Of a DNA stretch of 64,000 nucleotides, positions 42,399 through 61,274 are shown in pieces. The notes under the pieces were generated by a model. The model worked only from the letters and a program-made list of their open reading frames with translations. It made no database searches and was not told the origin of the DNA. Numbering within the stretch: position 1 is the first letter of the stretch; each line of letters begins with the position of its first letter. The stretch comes from a virus. Lineage: Duplodnaviria > Heunggongvirae > Uroviricota > Caudoviricetes. The stretch is taken from positions 58,085 to 122,084 of the IMG/VR virus record IMGVR_UViG_3300032116_000040; one strand, 5' to 3'. Both the position numbers and the translations under genes were made by a program.

Positions 42399-45181
42399 GC
42401 TGCATAATCGTTTGATGTTCGCCAGTCATCATTGTTTATGTATTCTTTCCTGATAAATGAATCTCCTTTCATTATTGCAATAATTGAATGTTCATCCTCA
42501 TTTTCATCAAAATAGTTAGTCACGATATATAATCGATTATCAATTATTCTAACAGTATTTACGTTAGTCTCGTTAGATACATACGTTGAAATTAATTCTA
42601 AGTCGATATCGTATACATCAACACATGCAAAACCATCTTCATTATTGTATGCACATGCACACATATTCGGCCCTAAATCCAATCCTTCATTATAGAATAC
42701 CGAATCCTTTTCGATTACTGAGCCATCAGCTTTAACTAAAGTTAAAGTATACGATTCAGTGTTTGTAATCTGGTCAGTTATAAGAGAATAATCTTCATTT
42801 AGTGCAGTTAATGTAGCAGATATTGATAAATCATCAACGATAGCTAAATATGCGTCAACCACATTATGAAAATCTGTTTCAGTGAATCCGTGCTGAACTG
42901 ACTCATTATATGTTGACATTAGAAGATAGTGTACTTCAGTTACGCCAGCAGTATCTAGTCCAAGTATCTTGTGATAATCATTATTAGTATCAAGGTCAGT
43001 ATCGACCTCTTGAATTAATGCAGCATCTTGTGCATTTACAATTATGATTTGATTAATAGTTGGATCAGACTCGCCGTCCATGTCACTACCTCCACCAGTA
43101 GTAGTCTTTAGGAATGCAGTATATTCATTACCACCTACTGTTACTTCATATGAATCAAGTGTATTATATCCGTTAGTGTCAATTCCAGTTGAACCCGTTA
43201 TAAAAAATTCAGTGATATCTACGTCTTTAGCAACCATCGTAAATAATCCAGGATATAAGTTAGTAAAGTATTGTGAACCTGTTCCAAAGTCAGCATCACC
43301 AACGACTACTGCTCCGTCCATTTCAAACACACTTAGAGTAGCTTCATCATTTTGGCTAAATACATCAGGTATTACCTCCATTTGAGTATGAGTATATGCA
43401 ATCTCAGATGCAAGATCAGTGTTTAAACGATTTCCACCATCGTACATGTCATCACCGCCATCAGATATGCTATCTTCACCAATATCATTAAATAGATACA
43501 ATCGACGACCTTCTCCGCTCTGGATCAAGAGATTTCCTGGATACAGTTTATCTTTTTGGCGATATGTTGAAGTTGTCTGGATTCGTCCAAATGGAGGCAA
43601 TATATTCGCCGTAAACGGTGCGGGATCTTCAGCCGGTAAATAATATGATTGAAAATCAGTATCGCTTGAATTTCTCCATACTACTATATTTCCTTCTTTC
43701 TCCCAATAATTTGAATCCCTAACGTCATATGAGTACTCTAAAAAGCTATCACCGTCTTTCGTTGTTATAAAATATTTTCCAGGAGAGTCAGTCTCATCTA
43801 GATATGCATCAATTAGATATCGATTACCTAACTCATAAGTATTAAAATAATCGTAATCATCAAATGAAATTAACGGAGATGTACCAATATTACCGTTACT
43901 ATTAAAATTTAAGTAAGCTAATTGAGGTAGAACCGCATCTCTATCTGTACATACTGGCAAATATATTGAGTCTGCAACGTGAATCTGGTCCCAATTAATT
44001 GCCTTTGGTTCGTTGTCAGCAAAAGTATATACTGTCGATAAGTCCTCCATTCCGTCATATAATCGAATAAAATCACAATATGTCACATCACGCAAGTCTT
44101 TGTTATACCCAAGATCGTCTGAGAATGTAATTAGCCCGTTTTCAGTTATAATATCGTATTGACTACCGTTATTTCGATATTGGCCCTTAACTACAAAATT
44201 AGGATAATTTACTCGATCATGAGTAGTGGTCAATAGATTACCGACTACTTCATCATAATAACATATAAAGTATTCAGTATTATTATAGAAGGTATCGACA
44301 TGTTTACCTGCACCAAAAACATCTGCAAATTTACCAGTATAATTACCAGCAGATAAGTCAAGACTTGCTAGTTCAACGCCAGCGTTATCATAATAATAAA
44401 TGTTCTTCCACTCATTATCATCACCATTATAGACAGCTAGCCTAAAAATATTTGAGTTTTCGTATACTTCTAAGTAATAGTTTTCAAATTGATCAACCTC
44501 AATTTTACGTATCAACTTTAATCCAGATTCGTCAGTAAAGAAGACATTGTAGAAACCAGGAGCTTCGGGCCCATCACCTTCAGCAGTATATGATGTTATA
44601 AAAAATCCTGATAAGTTGTCATCCGAATAATCCCACTCAATCGTATCTTGTGAAAGATCTTCAGTCCTTACTTCTAATCCATCGAACCACCATAGTTTAT
44701 ATGCATCCCAATCACATACTACAATAAAATTACCATTTGCACTGTATATGCTAGTGTCTATTGTGGTAAGTTCTAATTTTTGGATAAGCCCTCCTCCTGC
44801 ACTAAAGAAGAAGAATACTCGATCAGCCGAACTGTTATTACTAAACGTCATTAGATACCCGCGATCTTGAACAATGTACGTCCCATCGTAGTTATTATCG
44901 TCATAGTACCAATCTTCACTAGTATTAAGACCAGTATTAAATACTGCAGGAAATGATTTTTTTTCAAAATCCATTATTCCAATATAAAATTGACCGGTCT
45001 CGGATTCATACGTATACGATGAAGTTTGACCCTGCTTAGTTCGAGGCAATCTGCCGCTTCCCGCAGCAGCTGCTGCCATTGCCGCATTATATGACATTTG
45101 TTCGAATATCATTCGCTCTTCCATTTTTCTTCTGATCTCCTTTTGTTCAGGTGTCTCATGACCCCAGTTAATAAATGACAT
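42389..45181 (-). CDS. large tail-fibre or receptor-binding-like protein (930 aa) with the conserved N-terminal module MSFINWGHETPEQ
   Basis: Asp/Asn/Tyr/Gly-rich repetitive sequence. It shares an N-terminal module of about 45 aa with 49906..50724 and 61341..61949. Confidence 0.5.
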   Translation of the reverse strand: MSFINWGHETPEQKEIRRKMEERMIFEQMSYNAAMAAAAAGSGRLPRTKQGQTSSYTYESETGQFYIGIMDFEKKSFPAVFNTGLNTSEDWYYDDNNYDGTYIVQDRGYLMTFSNNSSADRVFFFFSAGGGLIQKLELTTIDTSIYSANGNFIVVCDWDAYKLWWFDGLEVRTEDLSQDTIEWDYSDDNLSGFFITSYTAEGDGPEAPGFYNVFFTDESGLKLIRKIEVDQFENYYLEVYENSNIFRLAVYNGDDNEWKNIYYYDNAGVELASLDLSAGNYTGKFADVFGAGKHVDTFYNNTEYFICYYDEVVGNLLTTTHDRVNYPNFVVKGQYRNNGSQYDIITENGLITFSDDLGYNKDLRDVTYCDFIRLYDGMEDLSTVYTFADNEPKAINWDQIHVADSIYLPVCTDRDAVLPQLAYLNFNSNGNIGTSPLISFDDYDYFNTYELGNRYLIDAYLDETDSPGKYFITTKDGDSFLEYSYDVRDSNYWEKEGNIVVWRNSSDTDFQSYYLPAEDPAPFTANILPPFGRIQTTSTYRQKDKLYPGNLLIQSGEGRRLYLFNDIGEDSISDGGDDMYDGGNRLNTDLASEIAYTHTQMEVIPDVFSQNDEATLSVFEMDGAVVVGDADFGTGSQYFTNLYPGLFTMVAKDVDITEFFITGSTGIDTNGYNTLDSYEVTVGGNEYTAFLKTTTGGGSDMDGESDPTINQIIIVNAQDAALIQEVDTDLDTNNDYHKILGLDTAGVTEVHYLLMSTYNESVQHGFTETDFHNVVDAYLAIVDDLSISATLTALNEDYSLITDQITNTESYTLTLVKADGSVIEKDSVFYNEGLDLGPNMCACAYNNEDGFACVDVYDIDLELISTYVSNETNVNTVRIIDNRLYIVTNYFDENEDEHSIIAIMKGDSFIRKEYINNDDWRTSNDYAAWY

Positions 45182-45190
45182 GTTAAAAAG

Positions 45191-45209
45191 TTATTTTAAT
45201 TATTTATCT
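45191..45209 (-). promoter_or_regulatory. late-promoter-like GATAAATAATTAAAATAAC motif upstream of the fibre gene
   Basis: Motif family. About 10 nt upstream of the ATG at 45181. Confidence 0.4.
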
Positions 45210-45372
45210 TACTCATATTTTAAAAATAGATTTCAATATAGTATATTATGTACATGAAAAGAAGAACATACATTCTGAAATCGAACGTATTCGAGAAGAA
45301 CTTAAGAAGACCACTAAAGTAAAAGAACAAAAGGCAATGGGATTCAGCAATGGAAAATAATTAATAATTAGC

Positions 45373-49905: not shown

Positions 49906-50724
49906 TTATAAAGATTTTTTTATTTTATAGTCAAGTATGTACTTGTTTGCATATAGGAAAGACGTGATGCTATTACTCAATTGATTTTTGTATTTAGCAG
50001 CATCACCACTATTATCCCTTTGCACTGATACGACGTCTGCGACATATGTCTCAAAGAAATTTGAGGTAAATTCACCAGCATCTGGGTCCCAAGAGTAGAA
50101 TGTTCCATCACTCATAACGTGTACTATTTCTCCAGGATTTCCAGAAGTCGGTAGGTTTGCGGGTGAAGCTACTTCAGTCAAATAGTTAAAGTATTTTACC
50201 CCTGGCATCTTGTCTGCAGGTGAAAAACCCGTCACTTTCACTTCAGTCCAACTTTCATACTCAGTCACAGGTAACCACTGAGTATGTTGAGAGTCAGTGA
50301 GCACATTCGAATAGAACTTCGTAGATTCTGGCAGAGGAGGAAGTTCAACTATGTTACTAATTTTTCCTAACTCTCGAGCGACAGCATTTTCACTTTGCTT
50401 TTTAAGATAGAGGTCGCGAGCTGCCCTAAACTCAACCCCTAAATCATCTTCAACAAGTCTATCATAAGTATCGAAGTCCTCATCCGTCATCCTATAGCGA
50501 TCGCTGATTAGATACTGCAAGTCAAAATAATTGTTCTGTGGAGATATTGCTTTTTCTCCACCGCAATATTTAGGAAGAGATATTCCGCGACCGCCACTAC
50601 CTGCTGCAGCAGCCGCGGCTGCTGCAGCTGCAGACATCATTTGTTCAAAGATCATCTGATCTTCCATTTTTCGACGAATTGCTTTTTGTTCTTCTGATTC
50701 TTCTCCCCAATTGATAAATGCCAT
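49906..50724 (-). CDS. fibre-family protein (272 aa) with the shared N-terminal module MAFINWGEESEEQ
   Basis: N-terminal about 45 aa homologous to 42389..45181 and 61341..61949. Poly-Ala linker. Confidence 0.5.
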   Translation of the reverse strand: MAFINWGEESEEQKAIRRKMEDQMIFEQMMSAAAAAAAAAAGSGGRGISLPKYCGGEKAISPQNNYFDLQYLISDRYRMTDEDFDTYDRLVEDDLGVEFRAARDLYLKKQSENAVARELGKISNIVELPPLPESTKFYSNVLTDSQHTQWLPVTEYESWTEVKVTGFSPADKMPGVKYFNYLTEVASPANLPTSGNPGEIVHVMSDGTFYSWDPDAGEFTSNFFETYVADVVSVQRDNSGDAAKYKNQLSNSITSFLYANKYILDYKIKKSL

Positions 50725-50736
50725 GTATCTTTAAGT

Positions 50737-50776
50737 TATTTTAATTATTTATTTTAATTATTTATTTTAATTTTTT
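50737..50776 (-). repeat. about 2.7 tandem copies of a 14-nt AATTATTTATTTTA unit that contains the late-promoter-like motif
   Basis: TTATTTTAATTATTTATTTTAATTATTTATTTTAATTTTTT immediately upstream of 49906..50724. Confidence 0.5.
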
Positions 50777-50821
50777 ATGTATCATACTAAAACTTTATAG
50801 AAGAAAGGAATCATGACTTCT

Positions 50822-51340
50822 TTAGAATGATATTTTAGTATAGATCTCATCAAAATCAGTGTAACCCTGAGTAAAGGTCCGCCAATCAATTGTGCCGGGT
50901 TCGATCACGCCTGCCTCGACTGCCATATCAATTAGGTCTTGAGCATTTTTACGATCGGTCGCAAGCAGCGCCAGAGTATCTTCTAAAAAAAGGTGAAGCC
51001 TACGTGCCTTTCTATTAACCTGCACAAGAATGTTTACATTTCCCCAATCAGCATCTTTTCCGATTATGGTAAAAGCCTGATCGAAAAACTTATCTGGGAT
51101 AACGTCTATTCCTGTGACAGAAAGATAGCACTCCCTCTTGGAAGGAGAGCTTGAAGAGCTTCGACCGATTAACTTAATCTCACTCGCTACCTTATCGCTA
51201 GCATACTCCTTTCTGTGACTAGCAACACGATCAGCGAATGGGTGCATGCCTTTCCCGCGTAAGTTTGCCTCAATCTCTCTCCATTTTTTGTTAGAAACCT
51301 CGTTAACGAAGGCTTCGAATAACTTGACGTGATTCTTCAT
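50822..51340 (-). CDS. hypothetical protein with capsid-targeting-sequence-like N-terminus (MKNHVKLFEAFVNE)
   Basis: ORF track. Confidence 0.5.
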   Translation of the reverse strand: MKNHVKLFEAFVNEVSNKKWREIEANLRGKGMHPFADRVASHRKEYASDKVASEIKLIGRSSSSSPSKRECYLSVTGIDVIPDKFFDQAFTIIGKDADWGNVNILVQVNRKARRLHLFLEDTLALLATDRKNAQDLIDMAVEAGVIEPGTIDWRTFTQGYTDFDEIYTKISF

Positions 51341-51369
51341 TGGAGTACTTTTATTTTATTTATTTGGTG

Positions 51370-52035
51370 CTAGCCGAACATTTTTGATACGATTCCGGCC
51401 ATTACCTTTTCGTGATCGAGTATGCAGCTACCGCCGAATGACTTTCGGTTTATGAGTAGTCCACGACCGAACTTTGTCATCTTTTCTATGTTGGAACTTT
51501 GTACCGGTCCGCTTAGTTTCTTTTCAATCACTGCGGTCCAAGCAGAGGCACTTGCATGGTCTGGATCTAAATTGGGACCAAATGCCTGAATGTACACGTC
51601 GTTCACAGCAATGCTAGTATAATCGAGAGTCTCATTATTTATCACTGAAGGAATGCCCTCAAACTTCATTTCAGAGTTAGTATCCTGCAAGACAAACACT
51701 ACTGGTACTTGAGTATCAGCAGAAGGTTGAAACTTGAGACTCAGCATCTTTTCAAACTCAGCATACAGGTCTCCAGTCTTGCAAGATGACTTGCCGCTGC
51801 CAAATGATACTGGATTAAAAAAGACTGCTAGGGCAAACCCATTGTCCAGCACTCCGCCCTTGTCTTCAGATAAAGGACTGACAACGTTATAGTTTAGGTT
51901 ATATACATAATCTTCGAGAGTGTGTCGACCCGTCTTGATAAAGCCAGAATCCTTTATTCCCGGTGTCATTAGGTTTGCATAAGAATAATTGGCCTCCTCA
52001 AAAAGTCTCCATTCATTAAAGCTTAGTAGTTTCAT
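51370..52035 (-). CDS. hypothetical protein with capsid-targeting-sequence-like N-terminus (MKLLSFNEWRLFEE)
   Basis: ORF track. Confidence 0.5.
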   Translation of the reverse strand: MKLLSFNEWRLFEEANYSYANLMTPGIKDSGFIKTGRHTLEDYVYNLNYNVVSPLSEDKGGVLDNGFALAVFFNPVSFGSGKSSCKTGDLYAEFEKMLSLKFQPSADTQVPVVFVLQDTNSEMKFEGIPSVINNETLDYTSIAVNDVYIQAFGPNLDPDHASASAWTAVIEKKLSGPVQSSNIEKMTKFGRGLLINRKSFGGSCILDHEKVMAGIVSKMFG

Positions 52036-52122
52036 CAGTCTTTTTTATTTATTTATCTCTTTTAACCGGTCTGAACTTTTTAGTATTATAGTCAAGCAAT
52101 TACTACTAAATAGAATAGAGAA

Positions 52123-52530
52123 ATGATACAAACAACAGTAGAGTGGTTTAATCAACAATTAGTTGATAGGCAAAATGGTAATAATTATGGTGGAAGTTGG
52201 GATGAAATATTGGAACAAGCCAAAGAAATGGAAGCTAAACAACGCCAAGAAGATACTAACCATGGCTATTCACAGGGATATGATGATGCCTCTCAAGGTA
52301 AAGAACCGATGCGACCTAAAATAATAAATAGAAAGCAAATAAAAGAATTTCTTGACAAACTAGATCAACTTTGTTGGGAATATGGTTGTGAGATAAAACC
52401 AACTCACCCTATACCACAAGAAGAGCATGCTACCGTAACGATCACAAATAATACGGAAACTGTGAAATTAACTTATATTGACGGTGAAGGCATTGGCATT
52501 GGCGGAGATACTACATATAAATCAGAATAG
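52123..52530 (+). CDS. hypothetical protein (135 aa) carrying the repeat-A module (DTNHGYSQGYDDASQGKEPMRP)
   Basis: ORF track. It shares about 100 nt at roughly 87% identity with the 3' end of 56360..56971. Confidence 0.45.
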   Translation: MIQTTVEWFNQQLVDRQNGNNYGGSWDEILEQAKEMEAKQRQEDTNHGYSQGYDDASQGKEPMRPKIINRKQIKEFLDKLDQLCWEYGCEIKPTHPIPQEEHATVTITNNTETVKLTYIDGEGIGIGGDTTYKSE

Positions 52531-52687
52531 GATGGAGTGGACGACTGCTAATCCCATTAGGGAAGGAAAGTACGTGGTGGAAACAAAGACCGCGATGGGT
52601 AGGATACAGAGACTTGAGTCCTACTGGAACGGAAAATCGTGGTCCTTTACGAATCAAGTGTTCTTAAGGTATCTGAAGGAGGGGTAA
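52531..52687 (+). CDS. small hypothetical protein (about 52 aa from internal MEWTTANPIREGK)
   Basis: The track ORF 52478..52687 overlaps the upstream gene. The internal ATG sits at the upstream stop. Confidence 0.3.
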
Positions 52688-52818
52688 GAACTAGTTGAAT
52701 GCTCGACCCGAATGGATCATGGCAGCGATCCTATCTGATTCCAACTTACCTAACTGATCTAGTATGCGGAGAATCCTTTTACACATTCGACTAAATTTTT
52801 TTTATTTATTGTAGATAA

Positions 52819-52830
52819 TTTAGTATAATA
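52819..52830 (+). promoter_or_regulatory. TTTAGTATAATA -10-like promoter box upstream of the small peptide and prs-like gene
   Basis: Motif family. Confidence 0.4.
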
Positions 52831-52894
52831 TCATTAGGGCGGAAGCTCGATTATAGAGCAGCCGACGAAATACGTAAATTAAAAATGGTGTAAC

Positions 52895-52984
52895 ATGGAA
52901 ACAATTATTGCAATTCTCATACCGATCGCCTTTGCGGCACTGATTCTTTTTTCCTACGCGATGTGGAAAAGAAATAACTTTTAA
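52895..52984 (+). CDS. 29-aa hydrophobic peptide (METIIAILIPIAFAALILFSYAMWKRNNF) directly upstream of the prs-like gene
   Basis: ATG with a TAA stop 10 nt before the prs-like ATG. One TM helix. Coding status uncertain. Confidence 0.25.
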   Translation: METIIAILIPIAFAALILFSYAMWKRNNF

Positions 52985-52994
52985 AACGACTAAT

Positions 52995-53894
52995 ATGAGC
53001 ATATCTAAACTAAACTTAACAAATCCGATGGATTCGGATGTAAAATTCAAGATCTCTCGGTTTCCTGATGGACAACAAACTGTAGATATCGAATCTGCAC
53101 CAATGTATATCAATGGATTAGATGTTAAGATCTATTCTCGAATGAATTCTTTTCGTGATATCGAATTGATTATTGCTGCCAATCAAGCTCTTAGAGAAAT
53201 GGCGGTAGGAACCGTTACCTTATATGTTCCTTATTTCTTGGGTGCACGCTCGGATCGTAAATTTCAACAAGGAGGAACCAATTACTTAAAGCAAGTGATT
53301 TGTCCAATCATCAATGCACAAAAATTCGATTGTGTAATTGTTTTAGATCCACACTCAGATGTACTCGAAGCTTGCTTAAATAACTTCGGAAAGATTGATA
53401 ACCATACAATCGTTAAGTATGCTCTTACAAATATCGATAATCGAAACGCCGCTCGAGACAGAATCTGTTTAGTTTCACCGGACGGCGGTGCTCTAAAGAA
53501 AATCTATGACATCGCACACGAGTTTCAAATTCATCATCTTGTCACGGCAATGAAACACCGCGACATTCAAACTGGAAAAATCAATCATACTGAAGTTCCG
53601 ACCTTGCCAGCTTCTCTTGATGGTGAAAAAATGAAATATGTTATAGTTGATGATATCTGTGATGGAGGTAGAACATTCACTGAATTGGCAAAAGCAATTC
53701 ATGCCCAGCAGCCGGAAGCTAAACTTTACTTAATCGTAACACATGGAATCTTTTCTGCAGGATTTGAAGATCTGAGCAAGTACTTTACTAAGATTTACAC
53801 ATCCAATTCTGTAAAAGATATCATGAATGAAAATGATGATACTGATGCAGAAAGAGCTGCAAAACAAATCGTAACACAATTTAACGTATTCTAA
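52995..53894 (+). CDS. ribose-phosphate pyrophosphokinase (PRPP synthetase) family protein; candidate ADP-ribose pyrophosphokinase of a phage NAD+ reconstitution pathway
   Basis: KFKISRFPDGQQTVDIE, YVPYFLGARSDRKF, LDPHSD and the PRPP-binding loop YVIVDDICDGGRTF parallel E. coli Prs (GRFSDGEVSVQI, IPYFGYARQDRR, VDLHA, VLVDDMIDTGGT). Confidence 0.75.
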   Translation: MSISKLNLTNPMDSDVKFKISRFPDGQQTVDIESAPMYINGLDVKIYSRMNSFRDIELIIAANQALREMAVGTVTLYVPYFLGARSDRKFQQGGTNYLKQVICPIINAQKFDCVIVLDPHSDVLEACLNNFGKIDNHTIVKYALTNIDNRNAARDRICLVSPDGGALKKIYDIAHEFQIHHLVTAMKHRDIQTGKINHTEVPTLPASLDGEKMKYVIVDDICDGGRTFTELAKAIHAQQPEAKLYLIVTHGIFSAGFEDLSKYFTKIYTSNSVKDIMNENDDTDAERAAKQIVTQFNVF

Positions 53895-54370
53895 TGAAGA
53901 TAATCAAACCTCCACACTCAATATCGAAAAACTACGATAGACGAACCAAAAGAGTGTTTTTAGCCGGCACGATAGAGATGGGAAACTCCCATGACTGGCA
54001 GAGCCAGGTGGAAGAGGCTCTCATTAATACTGAGTGCACGATATTAAATCCACGTAGAGAGGCATGGGATTCAAGTTGGGAACAGAGGATCGAGAGTCCT
54101 CAATTCTATCAGCAAGTCAATTGGGAACTGGATGCTCTTAATAAATCCGATCTGATCATCCTGAACCTCCTGCCTGACTCCAAATCACCTATCTCTCTTC
54201 TTGAATTAGGATTATACGCTAGTAGTGGAAAATTACTGGTATGCTGCCCAGATGGATTCTGGAGAAAAGGCAACGTTGAGATCGTGTGTGAGAGATACGA
54301 CATTCCACTATACGAAAGCCTAGCCGATCTTTTAAATTCACTTACGATAAATCAAGCTATAATAATATGA
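53894..54370 (+). CDS. nucleoside 2-deoxyribosyltransferase / Rcl (DNPH1) / LOG-like N-glycosidase superfamily protein
   Basis: N-terminal RVFLAGTIE (LAG motif) and SLLELGLYASSGK (catalytic Glu context) in a protein of about 158 aa. Translationally coupled on both sides. Confidence 0.45.
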   Translation: MKIIKPPHSISKNYDRRTKRVFLAGTIEMGNSHDWQSQVEEALINTECTILNPRREAWDSSWEQRIESPQFYQQVNWELDALNKSDLIILNLLPDSKSPISLLELGLYASSGKLLVCCPDGFWRKGNVEIVCERYDIPLYESLADLLNSLTINQAIII

Positions 54371-54543
54371 AAGAACAAAAATTTTTAATCATTGATGATG
54401 CATCTGAAGTAAATTCATACTTACGTGATGGATGGGAAGTAATTTCGGTAACAGCACAACATGTTGCAGCCGCAGGATCACATAGCTGGTCAGAAAAACT
54501 TGAAGGTAAATTTGCAGTAGTAATCGAAAAACAAAAACAATAA
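54367..54543 (+). CDS. small protein (58 aa) between the Rcl-like and NAMPT-like genes
   Basis: ATGA overlap with the upstream gene. Ends 3 nt before the NAMPT ATG. Confidence 0.35.
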   Translation: MKEQKFLIIDDASEVNSYLRDGWEVISVTAQHVAAAGSHSWSEKLEGKFAVVIEKQKQ

Positions 54544-54545
54544 AT

Positions 54546-56051
54546 ATGAATCCATTATTATTAACTGATGGTTATAAAACATCGCATAATAGACAGTATC
54601 CAGAAGGAACTACTCTAGTCTATTCAAACTTTACACCACGATCTAACAAGTACGCACCGAAAGGATGTGACGAAGTAGTAGTGTTTGGAACACAGATGGT
54701 CATGATTCAGCTTCACGAGATGTTTCAAAAAGATTTCTTTGATAAACCAAAAGATGATGTGTGTCGTGAAATGAAACAAGAATTGTCAATGTATTTGGGA
54801 ACAGAATATGACGTTTCTCACTTTGAAAAGCTACACGACTTGGGTCACTTGCCGATCCATGTTAAATCTCTACCTGAAGGAACCAAGGCACCGATTAAAG
54901 TTCCGGTACTTACGATCTATAACACGCATCCTGATTTCTATTGGATAACAAATTACTTGGAAACGATCCTTTCAAACCTATTGTGGAAACCAATGACATC
55001 AGCAACAATTGCTCATCAGTACAGAAAAGTATTGACCGAGTGGATGTTAAAGACAGATAAGGGCAATGCTTCATTCATTGACTGGCAAGGTCATGACTTC
55101 TCAATGAGAGGAATGGACTCAGTAGAAGCGGTAATTAGTTCTGGCTTGGGCCACTTAACATCATTCTGGGGCACCGATTCATTACCAACAATCTATGGTG
55201 CTCGTAAATACTATGGTGAAGAAGGTTTCTTTTGCGGATCAGTTCCTGCCACTGAACACTCAGTTATGTGTGCAGGTGGAAAAGAGGACGAAGTTGAGAC
55301 ATTCCGCAGATTGTTGAAGACATATCCTACCGGAATCCTTTCAGTTGTATCTGATACTTGGGATTTATTTAAAGTGTGTACAGAACACGTAGTTACTTTG
55401 AAAGAAGAGATCATGTCTCGTGACGGTAAGTTAGTTATTCGCCCTGACTCAGGAGATCCCGTTGATATTCTTTGTGGTAATACATTTACAAAACATGGTG
55501 AATATGTAGGAAAAGGCACATCATTTTATATCGAATCTACGGATGACACGCCTGACGCAAAGGGAGTAATTGAATTACTTTGGGATGTATTCGGTGGAAC
55601 TATCAATGAACAAGGTTACAAAGTTCTTGATTCACACATCGGAGCTATCTATGGTGACTCAATCACGATTGACAGAGCAAACGAAATCTGTAAGCGTTTA
55701 GAAGCAAAAGGGTTTGCATCAACAAACGTAGTGTTAGGTATTGGATCATTCACATATCAATACAATACCAGAGATACATTTGGTTTCGCAATGAAAGCAA
55801 CTTATGTTGAGGTAAATGGTGTTGGTAGAGAAATCTTTAAGGATCCGATTACTGATGATGGTACAAAGAAATCTGCAACAGGTTTATTAAGTGTTCACAA
55901 TCATGATGGTAAATATGTTTTAGTTGATCGTTGTACTTGGGAAGGTGAAGAAGTTAGTTCACTCCAAACCATTTATGAAGATGGTGAATTTGGTGTATTT
56001 TCAACTTTAACTGAAATTAGAGCTCGTTTAAAAGATGATAAGAAACTTTAG
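54546..56051 (+). CDS. nadV: nicotinamide phosphoribosyltransferase (NAMPT/NadV) family protein; candidate nicotinamide ADPR transferase
   Basis: MNPLLLTDGYKTSHNRQYPEGT N-terminus typical of NAMPT. 501 aa. GTDS and other family blocks present. Confidence 0.8.
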   Translation: MNPLLLTDGYKTSHNRQYPEGTTLVYSNFTPRSNKYAPKGCDEVVVFGTQMVMIQLHEMFQKDFFDKPKDDVCREMKQELSMYLGTEYDVSHFEKLHDLGHLPIHVKSLPEGTKAPIKVPVLTIYNTHPDFYWITNYLETILSNLLWKPMTSATIAHQYRKVLTEWMLKTDKGNASFIDWQGHDFSMRGMDSVEAVISSGLGHLTSFWGTDSLPTIYGARKYYGEEGFFCGSVPATEHSVMCAGGKEDEVETFRRLLKTYPTGILSVVSDTWDLFKVCTEHVVTLKEEIMSRDGKLVIRPDSGDPVDILCGNTFTKHGEYVGKGTSFYIESTDDTPDAKGVIELLWDVFGGTINEQGYKVLDSHIGAIYGDSITIDRANEICKRLEAKGFASTNVVLGIGSFTYQYNTRDTFGFAMKATYVEVNGVGREIFKDPITDDGTKKSATGLLSVHNHDGKYVLVDRCTWEGEEVSSLQTIYEDGEFGVFSTLTEIRARLKDDKKL

Positions 56052-56295
56052 TTCAATAATCCTAGTTGTAGTAATAACTGGGTTAATATATGGCGGAATA
56101 ATGTATCTTGCTATTGAAGATAGTAAGGTCTGTGATGAACAGGTCACATTGGATGATGGAACTTTGATCAAATCTACTAATGTAGTCTCTCGTGATAACG
56201 GAATGAGCACCATAGAAACCTGTGATGGAGAGCGCATACAGGTGCCTACTATAAAAATTAAAATGATTACCCGAGATGAAAGCAAAACTGATTAA
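56035..56295 (+). CDS. small membrane protein (86 aa)
   Basis: ORF track. N-terminal TM IILVVVITGLIYGGIMYLAI. Confidence 0.4.
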   Translation: MIRNFSSIILVVVITGLIYGGIMYLAIEDSKVCDEQVTLDDGTLIKSTNVVSRDNGMSTIETCDGERIQVPTIKIKMITRDESKTD

Positions 56296-56359
56296 AAAAG
56301 AAGATGGTTATAACTGACTCTTGATGACAATGGATGCTTAATACTAAAAAAAATATAAA

Positions 56360-56971
56360 ATGAAAAACATACACATATTACCAACAGAAAAATCAAGTAG
56401 GTTATTCAAATTTGCAAATCAATTGCATTTAGACACTATTCCAAAAGATTATTATAAGAAATACCAAATCTACATCACTTCTGATGAAGAAATTAGAGAA
56501 GGGGATTGGGGTTTGTCAAAACTTAATGAAGTAATACTATTTGGTAGAAGTTATAATGAAAAATTTTACAACAAAATCATCCTAACAACAGACCAAGAAT
56601 TAATTACAGATGGAGTACAATCTATTTCTGATGAATTCTTAGAATGGTTTGTGAAGAATCCAAATTGTGAGGATGTTAAGGTTAAAAATGTTATTAGCAA
56701 GTATTTTGATTGTGTAAGATATATTTACAAAATTATAATCCCACAAGAAGAATCTAAGCAAGAAGGTTACATTTGCCCACATACTAAAACACAATGTGAT
56801 GATGAATGTTGTGTAAGTGCTGAAGATTGCCATATAACATATTCATTGGCTTCAGGTATGGTTGACTGTGACGAACCTAAACAAGAATGGAAGCCAAACA
56901 ACGCCAAGCAGACACTAACTACGGTTATTCACAAGGTTATGATGATGCTGCTCAAGGTAAAGAACCAATGA
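56360..56971 (+). CDS. Cys-rich hypothetical protein whose 3' end is frame-shifted relative to the repeat-B module
   Basis: ORF track. In the +1 frame the last about 100 nt encode EAKQRQADTNYGYSQGYDDAAQGKEPMKPELI, homologous to the middle of 52123..52530 and ending at about 56987. Confidence 0.45.
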   Translation: MKNIHILPTEKSSRLFKFANQLHLDTIPKDYYKKYQIYITSDEEIREGDWGLSKLNEVILFGRSYNEKFYNKIILTTDQELITDGVQSISDEFLEWFVKNPNCEDVKVKNVISKYFDCVRYIYKIIIPQEESKQEGYICPHTKTQCDDECCVSAEDCHITYSLASGMVDCDEPKQEWKPNNAKQTLTTVIHKVMMMLLKVKNQ

Positions 56972-57002
56972 AACCCGAACTAATATAAATTATAATTAAC
57001 AT

Positions 57003-57497
57003 ATGAAAACGTTTAAGGAGCTTATATCTCAGGAGTATTGGAACTGGATGCCGGGCGAGGACTTTATCCGATCGAATGATCCTCGACAGATCGAGGGATT
57101 TATCCGTGATTACCTAGTCGATGAAGGAGACTGGGTAAAGGTTGAACGCGAGCCACACCCGATTGGTGAACGGGTCAGGATATGGTGGGGAGACACAGTC
57201 GGTCGCAAAACCTGCCATGCAGTAGTAATACCAAATAATCCAGGCAAGCTCTTGGACGAGGAACGTGCTATTCTTACTAAGTGGGATGACTTACGAGAAG
57301 TCGTCATCTACTACATTGGAGGCGGACTGCTTGAACACTGGTACGAGGATCGAGGAGAATATTGGGAGGAGGACATGCTCGAACAGCAGATAACGGAGAC
57401 GTTTTCGGCGGCAGAATTCAAGCTCATGGTATGGGAAGCCGATCGTGAGATGGCGGTTGCTCGTCTAAGAAATAAGTTAATGGATAACTCAAACTAA
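57003..57497 (+). CDS. hypothetical protein (164 aa), noticeably higher GC than its surroundings
   Basis: ORF track. Confidence 0.45.
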   Translation: MKTFKELISQEYWNWMPGEDFIRSNDPRQIEGFIRDYLVDEGDWVKVEREPHPIGERVRIWWGDTVGRKTCHAVVIPNNPGKLLDEERAILTKWDDLREVVIYYIGGGLLEHWYEDRGEYWEEDMLEQQITETFSAAEFKLMVWEADREMAVARLRNKLMDNSN

Positions 57498-57513
57498 CTT
57501 TTAAATCAGAAAT

Positions 57514-57705
57514 ATGAAAAAAGAAGAACTTGAAGAGGCTGCGGCAAATCTAGCAGATCCTAACCTATGCAAAACGGACAATTGGCTGGCTGGAGCCAAG
57601 TGGTATGCTGAGAACACGGATAAGATATACAGCGAAGAAGACCTTCAAAAGTTAAAAGACTTTGATACTTGGAAAGAATGGAAACATACTGGCATAATAG
57701 AATAG
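57514..57705 (+). CDS. hypothetical protein (63 aa)
   Basis: ORF track. Confidence 0.35.
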   Translation: MKKEELEEAAANLADPNLCKTDNWLAGAKWYAENTDKIYSEEDLQKLKDFDTWKEWKHTGIIE

Positions 57706-58829: not shown

Positions 58830-59177
58830 ATGGAAGACCTATTTAAAATCGAACCACAAGAGCCATATAGGATGAGCCAAAAAGAGTTTGTAGAGAAAAC
58901 AAAATCTGTTTTGGAAAAAATATACAATGCGTATTCACAAGGATGGCAAAGTAGAGTTTTAACAGATGATGAATACCCAGAAGAAAACGTATGTGATAAA
59001 TGTACAGGCTGTGGTATTTTCTTGGAAAACGGAGAAGAAAGAGATTGTGTTCAAGATAGAGAACAAGGAGACTGTTTTCACAGATTTTGTGATTACGAAC
59101 AAGTAGGCATGGACTTGGAAAATTATCTTGAAGATGTATGCGATCTACTTTCAGTGGATGAAGTCTTAAATAATTAA
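58830..59177 (+). CDS. acidic Cys-rich hypothetical protein (115 aa)
   Basis: ORF track. Confidence 0.4.
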   Translation: MEDLFKIEPQEPYRMSQKEFVEKTKSVLEKIYNAYSQGWQSRVLTDDEYPEENVCDKCTGCGIFLENGEERDCVQDREQGDCFHRFCDYEQVGMDLENYLEDVCDLLSVDEVLNN

Positions 59178-59188
59178 ATCAGAATAGA

Positions 59189-59617
59189 ATGGAAAAAGAA
59201 TTTATACCTTATGAGCTGGCTTTAAGAATGAAAGGACTTGTGTTTGATGAAAGATGCTTTAGGTATGAGGCAGTTAAAAAGATTTGTGAAAATCAGGCAC
59301 AGCCTGGAGGATGTCAATTACCTAATGTACATTGCGCATATCCTGGTTGTACTATTGATCGCAGCGTTGAGTCGTTACCTATCCCTGTTTGGCAACAAGC
59401 GTTTAGGTGGTTTAGAGAGAAGAATTTTCACGTTAATATAGATTCATATCACAGCTTAAGTAAGAATAAGCCTTTTGGATTATCGATTGATTATTTACAC
59501 GAATCTGGAAAATTGGATTATGTTGATTACAGAGATGATGAGGATTTTGAAACCTATGAAGAGGCACAAAAAAGAGCAATTGAAATTATTATTGAACTTT
59601 TAGAACGAAAGAAATAG
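59189..59617 (+). CDS. hypothetical protein, tandem paralog A
   Basis: Shares (F/V)xYELAxx(K/M)xLxF...(Q/S)QAFRWFR(E/D) with 59622..60041. Confidence 0.45.
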   Translation: MEKEFIPYELALRMKGLVFDERCFRYEAVKKICENQAQPGGCQLPNVHCAYPGCTIDRSVESLPIPVWQQAFRWFREKNFHVNIDSYHSLSKNKPFGLSIDYLHESGKLDYVDYRDDEDFETYEEAQKRAIEIIIELLERKK

Positions 59618-59621
59618 AACA

Positions 59622-60041
59622 ATGAAAGATTTTGTATCATATGAATTAGCAGTCAAGCTTAAAACATTAGGATTCAATTTGCCATGTTACATGTACATCT
59701 ATACAGGAGATACTGGTAATAATTATGATCATTACTTGGAAGTAAAACCTAGTGATTCAAAGGATTGGAATGGTAAGTCTGACTTATGTGTTTCCCGTCC
59801 AACCTTCTCACAAGCATTTAGATGGTTTAGAGATAACTACAACTTATTCTGCGAAATAAACGTAGATAAGACAATGGAACCTAAGTTTGCTTTTACCATA
59901 AAAGAGTATGAGTCAGATCAGTTCCTTGAGGGATTTGGAGAAGACGTCTTGTCTGAGTATTTGTATTATAAGCATGAAGAAGCAGAACTTGCTTGTCTCC
60001 AAAAACTCGTTGAGATTGTCGAAGAAAATAAATTAGCATAA
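59622..60041 (+). CDS. hypothetical protein, tandem paralog B
   Basis: See paralog A. Confidence 0.45.
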   Translation: MKDFVSYELAVKLKTLGFNLPCYMYIYTGDTGNNYDHYLEVKPSDSKDWNGKSDLCVSRPTFSQAFRWFRDNYNLFCEINVDKTMEPKFAFTIKEYESDQFLEGFGEDVLSEYLYYKHEEAELACLQKLVEIVEENKLA

Positions 60042-60437: not shown

Positions 60438-61274
60438 ATGACCGATCAATTAGGCGACAGAATGAAGGACTTTTACGAAGACCGAACACGTTACAAGTTG
60501 GCACGTCGCACCAACACAATCATCCGCATCGACGGAAAAGCTTTCCATACTTATACTCGAGGACTTAAGCGTCCATTCGATGAAGGGTTAATGGAAGACA
60601 TGAACAAGACAACTGAGTACCTATGTCAGAATATCCAAGGTGCAAAATTTGGATACGTTCAATCAGATGAGATTTCAATTCTCATCACTGATTACGATGA
60701 CATTTCTACACATGCTTGGTTTGATGGTAACTTGCAGAAAATGGCAAGTATCGCTGCTTCATTGGCAACTGCAAAGTTTAACCAACTAAGAACACTAAGA
60801 AGAATGGAAGAACTTCATGATTACGAAATCATGAGCGTAGTGGAAGAAACTAAACTTGCAATGTTCGATGCTCGAGTATTTCAAATTCCTTACCAAGAGG
60901 AAGTGATTAATTACTTTATTTGGAGACAACAAGATGCTACAAGAAATTCTATTTCTTCTGTTGCTCAAGCTTACTTCTCCTCAAAGGAATTACATGGAAA
61001 GAAAACCAATGAAATGCAAGACATGCTGATGTTGGAAAAAGGAATCAATTGGAATGATTTTACCCCAAGAGAAAAACGAGGATCTCTTATCCGTAAAGTA
61101 GAAAAGACTTATGTGAAATTACAATCTGGACAAACAGTTCAAGTAAATCCTTCCCAAGTAGATCCTAGATTAAACGAAACATTCTCAAGAAACAAATGGG
61201 AAGCTGATAAAGAAACCCCAATCTTTTCGCAAGATAAATGTTATCTTCGTGAGTTAATGCCAAACCACAATTAG
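60438..61274 (+). CDS. Thg1-like protein (tRNA-His guanylyltransferase family 3'-5' nucleotidyltransferase)
   Basis: TIIRIDGKAFHTY, FGYVQSDEISILI and NLQKMASIAASLATAKF align with the Thg1 blocks VVVRLDGRNFHRF, IAYGQSDEYSFVF and FKRRASKFMTHVASQFAS. Confidence 0.65.
   Translation: MTDQLGDRMKDFYEDRTRYKLARRTNTIIRIDGKAFHTYTRGLKRPFDEGLMEDMNKTTEYLCQNIQGAKFGYVQSDEISILITDYDDISTHAWFDGNLQKMASIAASLATAKFNQLRTLRRMEELHDYEIMSVVEETKLAMFDARVFQIPYQEEVINYFIWRQQDATRNSISSVAQAYFSSKELHGKKTNEMQDMLMLEKGINWNDFTPREKRGSLIRKVEKTYVKLQSGQTVQVNPSQVDPRLNETFSRNKWEADKETPIFSQDKCYLRELMPNHN

What the first reader, a model, noticed from the sequence alone, without database searches (positions are those of the whole stretch)
52226..56987. 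Roughly 100-nt direct repeats (about 87% identity) bracket the NAD cassette; the downstream copy is frame-shifted
52226-52325, inside gene 52123..52530, matches 56886-56987 at the 3' end of gene 56360..56971: GAA(A)TGGAAGC(T/C)AAACAACGCCAAG...TATGATGATGC..CTCAAGGTAAAGAACC.ATG. In the upstream gene it encodes EMEAKQRQEDTNHGYSQGYDDASQGKEPMRP in frame. In the downstream gene a 1-nt indel shifts the frame, so the annotated ORF ends ...NNAKQTLTTVIHKVMMMLLKVKNQ. The +1 frame gives EAKQRQADTNYGYSQGYDDAAQGKEPMKPELI. The two host genes are otherwise unrelated. Direct repeats flanking a 4.5-kb accessory cassette suggest insertion or exchange by homologous recombination (a cassette-shuffling hotspot), and possibly a frameshifted or decaying flank.
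Basis: seen in the sequence. Interest (0 to 1): 0.6.

Follow-up and report, generated by a model that had tools for sequence, protein, structure and literature searches.

The report
Conserved phage gene module, one copy truncated
The two ~100-base repeats are copies of a protein-coding module common in small phage genes, and the downstream copy is the broken-off tail of a neighbouring gene at a recombination-prone spot; this is ordinary phage genome mosaicism, not a device for inserting the NAD cassette.

Summary
The repeat is real: 52223-52311 matches 56883-56970 at 87% over 89 nt (E 2e-20), and there are only two copies in the window. The frame break is real too, because the identical 203-aa ORF is called on 14 contigs from at least 8 samples.

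It is not a cassette-specific flank.
- The sequence encodes a ~30-aa module (EMEAKQRQxDTNxGYSQGYDD..GKEPM) found in small (33-101 aa) phage proteins.
- The two window copies are no more alike (84%) than copies from other metagenome contigs (75-93%).
- None of 80 related Prs/Nampt loci has the module nearby.

In close relatives (L114-L116, L119, L120, L123; 96-98% identical downstream) an intact module gene ending ...KPELI* sits 14 nt before the 164-aa gene. The window keeps only its 3' part, joined out of frame to a truncated 'MKNIH'-family gene exactly at that family's PKQE linker. Identity to the relatives jumps from about 78% to about 99% in the middle of the module, so the module is a recurrent crossover zone.

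Against L120, the variable block is about 50756-56937. Its left edge lies in an AT-rich intergenic repeat, 1.5 kb left of the upstream copy. The upstream copy sits in an in-frame fusion of two neighbouring genes.

Verdict: ordinary mosaicism with a decaying flank gene.

The parts
52226..52326 (+). Upstream copy of the conserved module. It is in frame and encodes (E)MEAKQRQEDTNHGYSQGYDDASQGKEPMRPKII.
52123..52530 (+). 135-aa chimeric host gene of the upstream copy. It has three parts: N module TVEWFNQQLVDRQNGN..EQAKE, the module, and a C module FLDKLDQLCWEYGCEIKPTHP. It is an in-frame fusion of two genes that are adjacent but separate in other phages.
   Evidence: L101, L095, L097 and L108 have a 94-aa module gene followed by a separate 62-125-aa gene carrying the C module. 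The DNA alignment shows about 68 nt missing in the window. Of 111 homologues only this protein combines the module with the C module.
56886..56988 (+). Downstream copy. It is the 3' remnant (33 codons, ATG 56887 to TAA 56986-56988) of the resident module gene that precedes the 164-aa gene in relatives.
   Evidence: L114-L116, L119, L120 and L123 carry an intact 78-82-aa gene ending DDAAQGKEPMKPELI*, followed by the same 14-nt spacer and the 164-aa gene.
56360..56971 (+). Truncated 'MKNIH'-family gene, consisting of the N domain and a Cys-rich module. Its normal C-terminal module is missing, and codons 56888-56971 are an out-of-frame read of the downstream copy.
   Evidence: 7269 homologues, median length 244 aa among the 120 listed, 54/120 with ...PKQE|TLEEAA..., none with the module. 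Family homology ends at 56887.
56879..56890 (+). Fusion joint AAACAAGAA|TGG. It is one base short of the in-frame product expected from the AAGAAA microhomology between the PKQE linker and ..AKE|MEAKQ.
   Evidence: read directly from the sequence
56937..57002 (+). Crossover interval. The last clustered mismatch to the relatives is at 56937 and the next is at 57002 or later.
56539..56544 (+). Polymorphic second disruption of the MKNIH gene in part of the population: a 1-nt deletion plus GG>TT, which splits the gene into 74 and 106 aa.
   Evidence: L098 (JGI) and L105 (ENA)
52995..56051 (+). NAD genes lying between the repeats: Prs-like 52995-53894, NDT-like 53894-54370, a 58-aa ORF 54367-54543, and Nampt-like 54546-56051.
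   Evidence: Pfam and PHROG hits
50756..56937 (.). Variable block relative to L120/L123. It holds the 172-aa and 221-aa minus-strand genes, the 135-aa gene, a 51-aa gene, the NAD genes, an 86-aa gene and the MKNIH gene. In L120 it is replaced by 0.83 kb: an 80-aa gene, a 98-aa gene, and the 5' part of the module gene.
50738..50786 (.). Left edge of the variable block. It is an AT-rich intergenic region with a 13-nt tandem repeat.
57003..57705 (+). Conserved backbone to the right of the joint: the 164-aa gene (49% GC) and the 63-aa gene. The 63-aa gene is a free-standing version of an MKNIH-family C-terminal module.

Best explanation
**What the repeat is.** The ~100 nt is the coding sequence of a conserved ~30-residue peptide module. 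The module belongs to a family of small, highly modular phage proteins of unknown function.

**Two unrelated histories.**
- The upstream copy belongs to a module gene that lost about 68 nt and became fused in frame to the next gene.
- The downstream copy is what remains of the resident module gene that sits immediately upstream of the 164-aa gene in this phage lineage.

**How the downstream copy was truncated (inferred).** A deletion of roughly 0.6-0.7 kb ran between two similar linker sequences. One is AAACAAGAA(A), the PKQE linker of the preceding MKNIH-family gene. The other is AAAGAAA, the ..AKE|M of the module gene. The deletion removed the MKNIH gene's C-terminal module, any gene in between, and the 5' part of the module gene. 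The join is one base short of in-frame. The MKNIH ORF therefore reads 27 nonsense codons through the remnant, and that gene is now decaying.

**Why the site looks like a hotspot (shown).** Because the module is conserved for protein reasons in many phages, it acts incidentally as a patch of homeology. Crossovers fall there repeatedly, joining different left-hand accessory gene sets to a conserved right-hand backbone.

**Where the NAD genes fit.** They are cargo inside a larger variable block of about 6.1 kb. The left edge of that block is an intergenic AT-rich repeat, not the upstream module copy.
For: **Shown**
- The module family is small proteins only. An exhaustive HMMER search of 1.84 billion representatives gives 22 clusters, all 33-101 aa. 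There are 51 module-bearing hits among 111 homologues.
- Copy-to-copy identity is at the family background level. The constraint is on the protein, because the differences are synonymous in the module frame.
- Relatives carry an intact module gene with the same 14-nt spacer before the 164-aa gene, and they are 96-98% identical to the window from about 56938 onwards.
- Mismatches cluster in 56886-56937 (p 1e-8 to 1e-11).
- All three lineage types (window, L116/L114, L120/L119) are identical in the 3' half of the module, 78-84% identical in its 5' half, and unrelated further upstream.
- L116 has the order MKNIH gene (with Cys module), 77-aa gene, module gene, 164-aa gene. Its Cys module is 99.2% identical to the window's.
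- MKNIH family homology stops at 56887, the end of the PKQE linker. No family member among the 120 listed carries the module.
- The frame break is fixed in at least 8 samples, and a further frameshift variant occurs in two assemblies.
- L120, L123, L119 and L110 have no NAD genes in the interval. No NAD locus out of 80 has the module.

**Inferred**
- The deletion mechanism and the order of events.

**Established knowledge**
- Phage recombinases recombine diverged sequences through short identical stretches (PMC2327257, PMC3945230).
Against: - The remnant shows no decay. Its synonymous/non-synonymous profile against intact copies (31 of 88 changed codons non-synonymous) equals that among intact copies (89 of 246). 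So the break is recent, or the 33-codon ORF is still translated.
- No genome carrying the exact ancestral allele (MEAKQRQADTNY 5' half with an intact N-terminal part) was found.
- A precise microhomology deletion would give an in-frame product. An extra 1-nt loss or an imprecise join must be assumed.
- The left boundary is defined only against the L120/L123 type. L116, whose Cys module is nearly identical to the window's, ends 2.7 kb upstream, so its content further left is unknown.
Confidence: 0.78

Rival explanations
1. The NAD cassette was inserted, or is exchanged, by homologous recombination between the two module copies. That would be Campbell-type or double-crossover cassette shuffling, with the repeats as its ends.
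For: - The repeats bracket the NAD genes.
- The right-hand copy does contain a real crossover zone.
- The NAD genes are absent from close relatives.
- Identity of 84-87% with 11-16-nt perfect runs is within reach of phage recombinases (PMC2327257).
Against: - The left edge of the variable block against L120/L123 is at about 50755, not at 52226.
- The upstream copy keeps the synteny seen in phages without NAD genes, namely a module gene followed by the FLDKLDQLCWE gene.
- The copies are no more similar to each other than to copies in other phages.
- None of 80 NAD loci carries the module.
- No deletion recombinant was found.
- No integrase or transposase domain occurs among the 10 proteins scanned.
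Confidence: 0.1
2. The downstream copy is functional. It would be expressed either as a C-terminal extension of the MKNIH protein through programmed -1 frameshifting or transcriptional slippage, or as an independent 33-aa peptide from ATG 56887.
For: - The 33-codon frame is intact and conforms to the family consensus.
- The ATG lies in an A-rich context.
- Natural in-frame fusions of the MKNIH domain to a whole small protein of the related 'SAVEW..AKEME' type exist (P0003).
Against: - There is no X XXY YYZ slippery heptamer in 56876-56890, and the -1 frame has a TAA at 56878-56880 (sequence).
- The longest A run at the joint is 2 nt.
- The downstream RNA folds no better than shuffles (z = +0.99), and there is no Rfam match.
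- No protein in 1.84 billion representatives has the module in a long protein. The three short proteins that begin at the module are 33-45 aa. The one examined closely (L108) is a degenerate pseudogene with an in-frame stop. L109 was only glimpsed (its contig ends there) and P0249 was not looked at.
- The MKNIH gene itself is further broken in part of the population.
Confidence: 0.08
3. The frame shift is a sequencing or assembly artefact, and the real gene is an in-frame 209-aa fusion.
For: The joint lies next to a short A run. One added A would give ...EPKQEMEAKQRQ... in frame.
Against: - The identical 203-aa ORF is found on 14 contigs from JGI, ENA (megahit) and Logan assemblies of different samples.
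- The repaired 209-aa sequence is absent from 15 billion proteins.
Confidence: 0.02

Closest known systems
Phage genome mosaic joints made by homeologous ('relaxed') or microhomology recombination (Martinsohn et al. 2008, PMC2327257; De Paepe et al. 2014, PMC3945230)
   Same: - There is an abrupt switch between unrelated and about 99%-identical sequence between related phages, at a short conserved sequence.
- The joints lie at gene or domain boundaries.
- Accessory genes lie in the variable part.
   Different: - The homeology patch here is a peptide-coding module inside small genes of an undescribed family from uncultivated freshwater phages.
- No recombinase was identified or tested.
C-terminal module displacement with 'orphan' modules in polymorphic toxin loci (CdiA VENN, Rhs PxxxxDPxGL); comparison from my own knowledge
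   Same: - A conserved N part is joined to many alternative C-terminal modules at a short conserved peptide linker (EQAKEME; PKQETLEEAA).
- Free-standing or truncated modules lie downstream.
   Different: - These are 60-250-aa phage proteins with no toxin or immunity signatures.
- No function is known.
- The resemblance is architectural only and membership was not tested.
Insertions flanked by direct repeats (att sites, target-site duplications)
   Same: Two direct repeats lie either side of accessory genes.
   Different: - The repeats are 13-16% diverged and are coding sequence.
- The left repeat is not a block boundary.
- There is no integrase or transposase.
- The cassette lacks these repeats elsewhere.
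Programmed -1 frameshifting in phage genes (e.g. the lambda G/GT tail assembly chaperone); comparison from my own knowledge
   Same: Two overlapping frames, with the second carrying a conserved peptide.
   Different: There is no slippery site, no stimulatory structure, and no conservation of the arrangement.
NARP1 NAD+ reconstitution pathway (Adps + Namat; bioRxiv 10.1101/2024.02.11.579819; PMC12774641)
   Same: The cargo between the repeats is an adjacent PRPS-like plus Nampt-like gene pair. That is the architecture described for NARP1.
   Different: - Substrate specificity was not tested here.
- An NDT-like gene (PF15891) and small ORFs are interleaved.
- This is the context of the finding, not its subject.

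Membership tests
Phage mosaic joint (homeologous crossover zone) | Abrupt change of identity between related genomes at the site | tested here: met
   There are 11-12 mismatches in the first 51-52 nt of the repeat and 0-1 in its 3' half. There are 0-3 per 120 nt downstream. Upstream is unrelated. This holds in L114, L115, L116, L119, L120 and L123.
Phage mosaic joint (homeologous crossover zone) | The same site is used in more than one lineage pair | tested here: met
   The L116 type against the L120 type also switches within the module: 8/51 mismatches, then 0/52.
Phage mosaic joint (homeologous crossover zone) | A phage or host recombinase able to use diverged homology | not tested
   No search for recombinase genes was made in the window.
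Repeat-flanked inserted cassette (att/TSD or Campbell-type) | Both repeats coincide with the ends of the segment that is absent from an empty site | tested here: not met
   The right end lies inside the downstream repeat. The left end is at about 50755, which is 1.47 kb left of the upstream repeat.
Repeat-flanked inserted cassette (att/TSD or Campbell-type) | The repeats are more similar to each other than to unrelated copies | tested here: not met
   The window copies are 84% identical to each other, against 75-93% among copies from other metagenome contigs.
Repeat-flanked inserted cassette (att/TSD or Campbell-type) | The same cassette elsewhere carries the same flanks | tested here: not met
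   None of 80 IMG/VR loci has the module.
Repeat-flanked inserted cassette (att/TSD or Campbell-type) | An integrase or transposase is associated with the block | tested here: not met
   No such Pfam or PHROG hit among the 10 proteins scanned in 51370-57497. The 172-aa minus-strand gene, the 51-aa ORF as actually called and the 29-aa ORF were not scanned against Pfam.
Programmed -1 ribosomal frameshift | A slippery heptamer X XXY YYZ at the shift site | tested here: not met
   The sequence is CCT AAA CAA GAA TGG, and the only permissive positions are 56881-56889, after the -1-frame TAA.
Programmed -1 ribosomal frameshift | A stimulatory downstream RNA structure | tested here: not met
   MFE -11.1 kcal/mol and z = +0.99 against shuffles. 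No Rfam family matched.
Programmed -1 ribosomal frameshift | The two-frame arrangement is conserved in homologues | tested here: not met
   None of the 120 listed MKNIH homologues carries the module. All module proteins are 101 aa or shorter.
Decaying gene / pseudogene (MKNIH-family ORF 56360-56971) | Truncated relative to its family, with a nonsense tail | tested here: met
   The C-terminal module is lost at the PKQE linker, and the 27-aa tail has no homologue.
Decaying gene / pseudogene (MKNIH-family ORF 56360-56971) | Additional disabling mutations segregate in the population | tested here: met
   A 1-nt deletion at 56539 plus GG>TT occurs in L098 and L105.
Decaying gene / pseudogene (module remnant 56887-56988) | An excess of non-synonymous or disabling changes | tested here: not met
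   The non-synonymous fraction is 0.35, against 0.36 among intact copies. The remnant is therefore recent or still constrained.
NARP1 (Adps + Namat) | Adjacent PRPS-like and Nampt-like genes in a phage | tested here: met
   PF00156/phrog_619 and PF04095+PF18127/phrog_448. The pair co-occurs in 66/80 related loci.
NARP1 (Adps + Namat) | ADPR-PP synthesis and nicotinamide ADPR-transferase activity | not testable with these tools
   This needs a biochemical assay.

The most novel reading that the evidence does not exclude
The conserved peptide-coding linkers and modules of this family would not be accidental homeology. These are EQAKEME, PKQE-TLEEAA, the EMEAKQRQ..GKEPM module, a 123-nt Cys-rich module, and '..FKSE*' gene ends. 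On this reading they form a combinatorial exchange system. It would be analogous to C-terminal displacement in polymorphic toxins. Uncultivated freshwater phages would use it to reshuffle small early or anti-defence proteins and swap cargo such as the NARP1-like genes. The truncated copy would then be a displaced 'orphan' kept as a recombination substrate.
Probability: 0.12. Interest if true: 0.6.

Novelty: new member of a known kind. Interest (0 to 1): 0.3.

Why it matters
- **Annotation.** The last 27 codons of ORF 56360-56971 are a nonsense read-through of a gene remnant, and 52123-52530 is a fusion gene.
- **A documented crossover zone.** This is a clean, base-resolved example of a conserved coding module acting as a recurrent crossover zone. 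It lies between a stable backbone and a hypervariable accessory region that carries NAD-reconstitution (anti-defence type) genes, in uncultivated phages whose longest contig is 248 kb.
- **No new mechanism.** The finding does not reveal one. The cassette-insertion idea fails the comparative tests.

Tried and rejected
1. **Assembly error.** Rejected by 14 exact contigs from at least 8 samples.
2. **Gene split by insertion.** I first thought an MKNIH gene had been split by insertion of [module fragment + 164-aa gene], with the 63-aa ORF 57514-57705 as its severed C-terminus. L106 aligns as one gene to both parts. I rejected this because all close relatives have an intact module gene, the 164-aa gene and the 63-aa gene in the same order. 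The 63-aa gene is therefore a normal free-standing module gene.
3. **Campbell-type insertion into a resident gene carrying the window's N module.** P0123 (82 aa, same N module...KPEL) was a candidate for the empty-site gene, but it lies in an unrelated phage.
4. **Gene conversion of the downstream 5' half from the upstream copy.** Rejected because there are 8 differences in 51 nt.
5. **Relatives of the flanking 221-aa and 164-aa genes in IMG/VR.** None were found. megablast against GenBank phages gave no match.
6. **Promoter and terminator scan.** Counts were at the level of shuffles.
7. **AlphaFold model of the 135-aa protein.** Mean pLDDT was 69.6 and pTM 0.39. The module forms the weaker half of a long helix. 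The model was too weak for a fold search and gave no functional lead.
8. **Pfam and PHROGs.** The upstream 135-aa gene was scanned against both. The representative module gene P0134, P0082, P0122 and the 63-aa ORF were scanned against PHROGs only. None gave a family hit. The only hit for the MKNIH family is phrog_15656, of unknown function.

Full report
**1.

- The window contains a direct repeat at 52227-52326 and 56886-56985. It is 84% identical over 100 nt ungapped.
- With one 1-nt gap the match is 87% over 89 nt, E 2.3e-20. This is the strongest internal similarity in the 64 kb.
- At the peptide level there are exactly two copies.
- The upstream copy is in frame in ORF 52123-52530.
- The downstream copy is out of frame with ORF 56360-56971 and open in another frame from 56881 to the TAA at 56986-56988.
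- Differences between the copies are mostly synonymous in the module frame: 8 synonymous and 4 non-synonymous codons. In the other two frames the split is 1 against 10-11. Both copies therefore evolved as coding sequence in that one frame.

**2. The frame break is real**

- The exact 203-aa ORF is called on 14 contigs, and the exact 135-aa upstream protein on 16.
- These come from JGI, ENA (megahit) and Logan assemblies of different samples. All are at least 99.9% identical to the window.
- The 'repaired' 209-aa protein and the 33-aa ORF are absent from a collection of 15 billion proteins.

**3. What lies between the repeats**

| Coordinates | Gene | Evidence |
|---|---|---|
| 52995-53894 | PRPS-like | PF00156, phrog_619 |
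| 53894-54370 | nucleoside 2-deoxyribosyltransferase-like | PF15891 |
| 54367-54543 | 58-aa ORF | no hit |
| 54546-56051 | Nampt-like | PF04095 + PF18127, phrog_448 |
| 56035-56295 | 86-aa ORF | no hit |

A PRPS-like gene next to a Nampt-like gene is the architecture of the phage NAD+ reconstitution pathway NARP1 (bioRxiv 10.1101/2024.02.11.579819; PMC12774641). I did not test enzymatic specificity.

**4. What the repeated sequence is**

- It encodes a ~30-residue module, (E)MEAKQRQ(E/A)DTN(H/Y/N)GYSQGYDD(G/A)xQGKEPM.
- About 50 of the 111 homologues of the upstream gene carry it.
- An exhaustive HMMER scan of 1.84 billion representative proteins finds 22 clusters. All are 33-101 aa, with the module at residues ~24-83.
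- The typical gene is about 94 aa: M.QTAVEW... / ..EQAKE-module-PEI / ..SYQDKMRDKIAKAKSRLK.
- The family is strongly modular. 56 of the 111 hits share the upstream gene's N module (xVEWFNQQLVDRQNGN...EQAKEME). Only 3 of those also have the module. The rest carry at least 23 other kinds of tail after the EQAKEME junction.
- Copies of the module from ten other metagenome contigs are 75-93% identical to one another in DNA. The two window copies are 84% identical. So the repeat identity is the family background, not a sign of a recent duplication within this genome.

**5. The upstream copy**

- In L101 a 94-aa module gene is followed directly by a 62-aa gene, MSPKMKEFLDKLDQLCWE... In L095 and L108 one or two genes lie between them.
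- The window lacks about 68 nt. These cover the tail and stop of the first gene and the start of the second. The two genes are thereby fused in frame.
- Only the window's protein combines the module with this C module.

**6. The downstream host gene**

- ORF 56360-56971 belongs to a very large family: 7269 hits, median length about 244 aa among the 120 listed.
- Members have an N domain (MKNIHLLPTEKPSRL...YITSDEEIKEGDW...KIILTTDQDLIADGVQAIDDEFLEWFVKNPSCE...IIIPQEE). They also have an optional Cys-rich module, a PKQE linker, and a variable C-terminal module that often ends FEQFKKK.
- None of the 120 listed members contains the repeat module.
- DNA homology to a family member (L107, 84%) runs to 56887, the last base of the linker codon GAA, and stops there.
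A precise join on AAGAAA would be in frame. The observed join is one A short.

**7. Decisive comparison: close relatives**

- Homologues of the 164-aa gene (57003-57497), and an exact look-up of the 63-aa gene (57514-57705), led to contigs of closely related phages.
- L114, L115, L116, L119, L120 and L123 all have an intact 78-82-aa module gene ending ...GYSQGYDDAAQGKEPMKPELI*. This is followed by the same 14-nt spacer, the 164-aa gene, the 63-aa gene, a 121-aa gene and a 173-aa gene.
- They are 96-98% identical to the window from the repeat rightwards.
- Within the repeat the pattern is sharp:

| Region | Mismatches to the relatives |
|---|---|
| 56886-56937 (5' half of the repeat) | 12 |
| 3' half of the repeat | 1 |
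| following 300-568 nt | 2-11 |

- Fisher p for this clustering is 1e-8 to 1e-11.
- The L116/L114 and L120/L119 types also differ from each other in the 5' part of their module genes. They show 8/51 mismatches in the 5' half of the module and are unrelated further upstream. From mid-module on they are identical.
- Three lineages therefore switch from 'different' to 'same' within the same ~50 nt. The module is a recurrent crossover zone at the edge of a conserved backbone.

**8. Origin of the truncation (inferred)**

- L116 has the order MKNIH gene with Cys module (253 aa), 77-aa gene, module gene, 164-aa gene.
- Its Cys module is 122/123 identical to the window's, although the adjacent N domains are only 70% identical.
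- The window has the same order, but everything between the PKQE linker and ..AKE|MEAKQ is missing.
- The simplest origin is one deletion of about 0.6-0.7 kb between the two similar linker sequences, in an ancestor whose module gene had the 'QADTNY' 5' allele. That allele is seen in L094.
- The MKNIH gene is dispensable. Two independent assemblies (L098, L105) carry a further 1-nt deletion at 56539 plus GG>TT, which splits the gene.
- The remnant itself shows no decay. So the event is recent, or the remnant is still constrained.

**9. Is the repeat pair the cassette's boundary? No**

- L120 and L123 span the whole region. They match the window at 92% up to about 50755. They then carry 0.83 kb of unrelated small genes, and match again at 97% from 56888.
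- The variable block is therefore about 50756-56937.
- Its left edge lies in an AT-rich intergenic stretch with a 13-nt tandem repeat. The upstream module copy lies 1.47 kb inside the block.
- L119, L120, L123 and the more distant L110 have no NAD genes in this interval. A 9.4-kb contig with a 98% identical 164-aa gene likewise shows only 79-, 80-, 107- and 82-aa genes there.
- Among 80 IMG/VR loci with a 65-84% identical Nampt-like gene, the PRPS-like gene is present in 66 and the NDT-like gene in 50, in variable order. The module is present in none.
- No protein corresponding to a recombinant between the two copies exists in the 15-billion-protein collection.
- Assemblies break inside the NAD genes, never at the repeats.

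**10. Functional readings of the frame shift**

- There is no slippery heptamer. The -1 frame has a stop at 56878-56880, which leaves only 56881-56889 for a shift.
- The A run at the joint is 2 nt.
- The downstream RNA is not structured (z = +0.99), and no Rfam family matches.
- Of the three short proteins that start at the module, L108 was examined closely. It is a degenerate copy with an in-frame stop.
- I give programmed frameshifting or an independent micro-ORF about 8% together.

**11. Comparison with what is known**

- The behaviour matches classical phage mosaicism: exchange at short conserved sequences, by homeologous or microhomology recombination (PMC2327257; PMC3945230).
- The conservation is at the protein level, because third codon positions vary freely. 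The recombination role is therefore most likely incidental.
- The modular architecture has constant parts joined to many tails at conserved linkers, with free-standing modules nearby. It resembles C-terminal displacement in polymorphic toxin loci. That is a resemblance from my own knowledge, not a tested membership.

**12. Verdict**

- The 'decaying or frameshifted flank' and 'recombination hotspot' parts of the interpretation are supported.
- The 'direct repeats delimit and mobilise the NAD cassette' part is not supported.
- This is a new instance of a known kind of phenomenon, and interest is low to moderate.

Noticed in passing
window 56765-56887; L116 2147-2269; L107 1736-1858: A 123-nt Cys-rich module (GYICPHTKTQCDDECCVSAEDCHITYSLASGMVDCDEPKQE) sits in frame between two KQE linkers of the MKNIH gene. 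It is 99.2% identical in DNA to L116's paralogue and 94% to L107's, while the adjacent N domains are only 70% and 81% identical. It is present in 34 of the 120 listed homologues and absent from close relatives of the same N domain. It looks like an independently moving in-frame module, or a piece of shared backbone.
   Followed up: partly
window 57514-57705: The 63-aa ORF MKKEELEEAAANLADPNLCKTDNWLAGAKW... is a free-standing version of a C-terminal module found fused to MKNIH N domains elsewhere (P0082, P0010, P0069; E 1e-17 to 1e-22). L120's 98-aa gene is a second free-standing module of this kind.
   Followed up: partly
L014-L093 (IMG/VR loci); window 53894-54370: A PF15891 nucleoside 2-deoxyribosyltransferase-like gene accompanies the PRPS-like/Nampt-like pair in 50 of 80 related viral loci. 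Its position varies: before, between or after the pair. It could be a third component of these NAD loci.
   Followed up: partly
window 50736-50786: A 13-nt tandem repeat (ATTTTAATTATTT) in the AT-rich intergenic region varies in length between samples. L005 lacks one unit (50736-50748). The same region is the left edge of the variable block.
   Followed up: partly
window 45095-45223 and 50638-50770: A 75% identical ~130-nt repeat covers the 5' end of a minus-strand gene plus its upstream region. A similar sequence recurs at the block edge in L119 and L120. It is probably a repeated promoter/N-terminal unit that also serves as a mosaic joint.
   Followed up: no
window 52519-52527, 57503-57511, 59176-59184: AAATCAGAA (..KSE, then a stop) lies immediately before the next start codon at three plus-strand gene boundaries here. 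The window has 6 copies against 2.65 expected by chance. Many small proteins in related contigs end ..FKSE. This is a conserved gene-boundary sequence.
   Followed up: partly
window 52896-52985: An unannotated 29-codon hydrophobic ORF (METIIAILIPIAFAALILFSYAMWKRNNF) lies in the ~300-nt gap before the PRPS-like gene. It is preceded by an AT-rich box (52784-52830) that resembles those at 50751-50786 and 51338-51364.
   Followed up: no
window ~53448-53490, 54708, 55742-55746, 56003-56017: Contigs from several independent assemblies end inside the NAD genes. This suggests that co-occurring related sequences confuse the assemblers there.
   Followed up: no
window 57003-57497 against 56360-56900: There is a sharp compositional mosaic. 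The MKNIH gene is 27-30% GC and the adjacent 164-aa gene is 48-49% GC.
   Followed up: partly
window ~60438-61274: A Thg1-like gene (PF04446, tRNA-His guanylyltransferase family) lies in the conserved backbone downstream.
   Followed up: no
window 59189-59617 and 59622-60041: These are tandem paralogous genes of 142 and 139 aa, both with ..QAFRWFR... Relatives carry variants of 125, 146, 149 and 214 aa at this position.
   Followed up: no
window 50603-50628: A perfect 26-nt palindrome lies inside the poly-alanine run of the 272-aa minus-strand gene.
   Followed up: no
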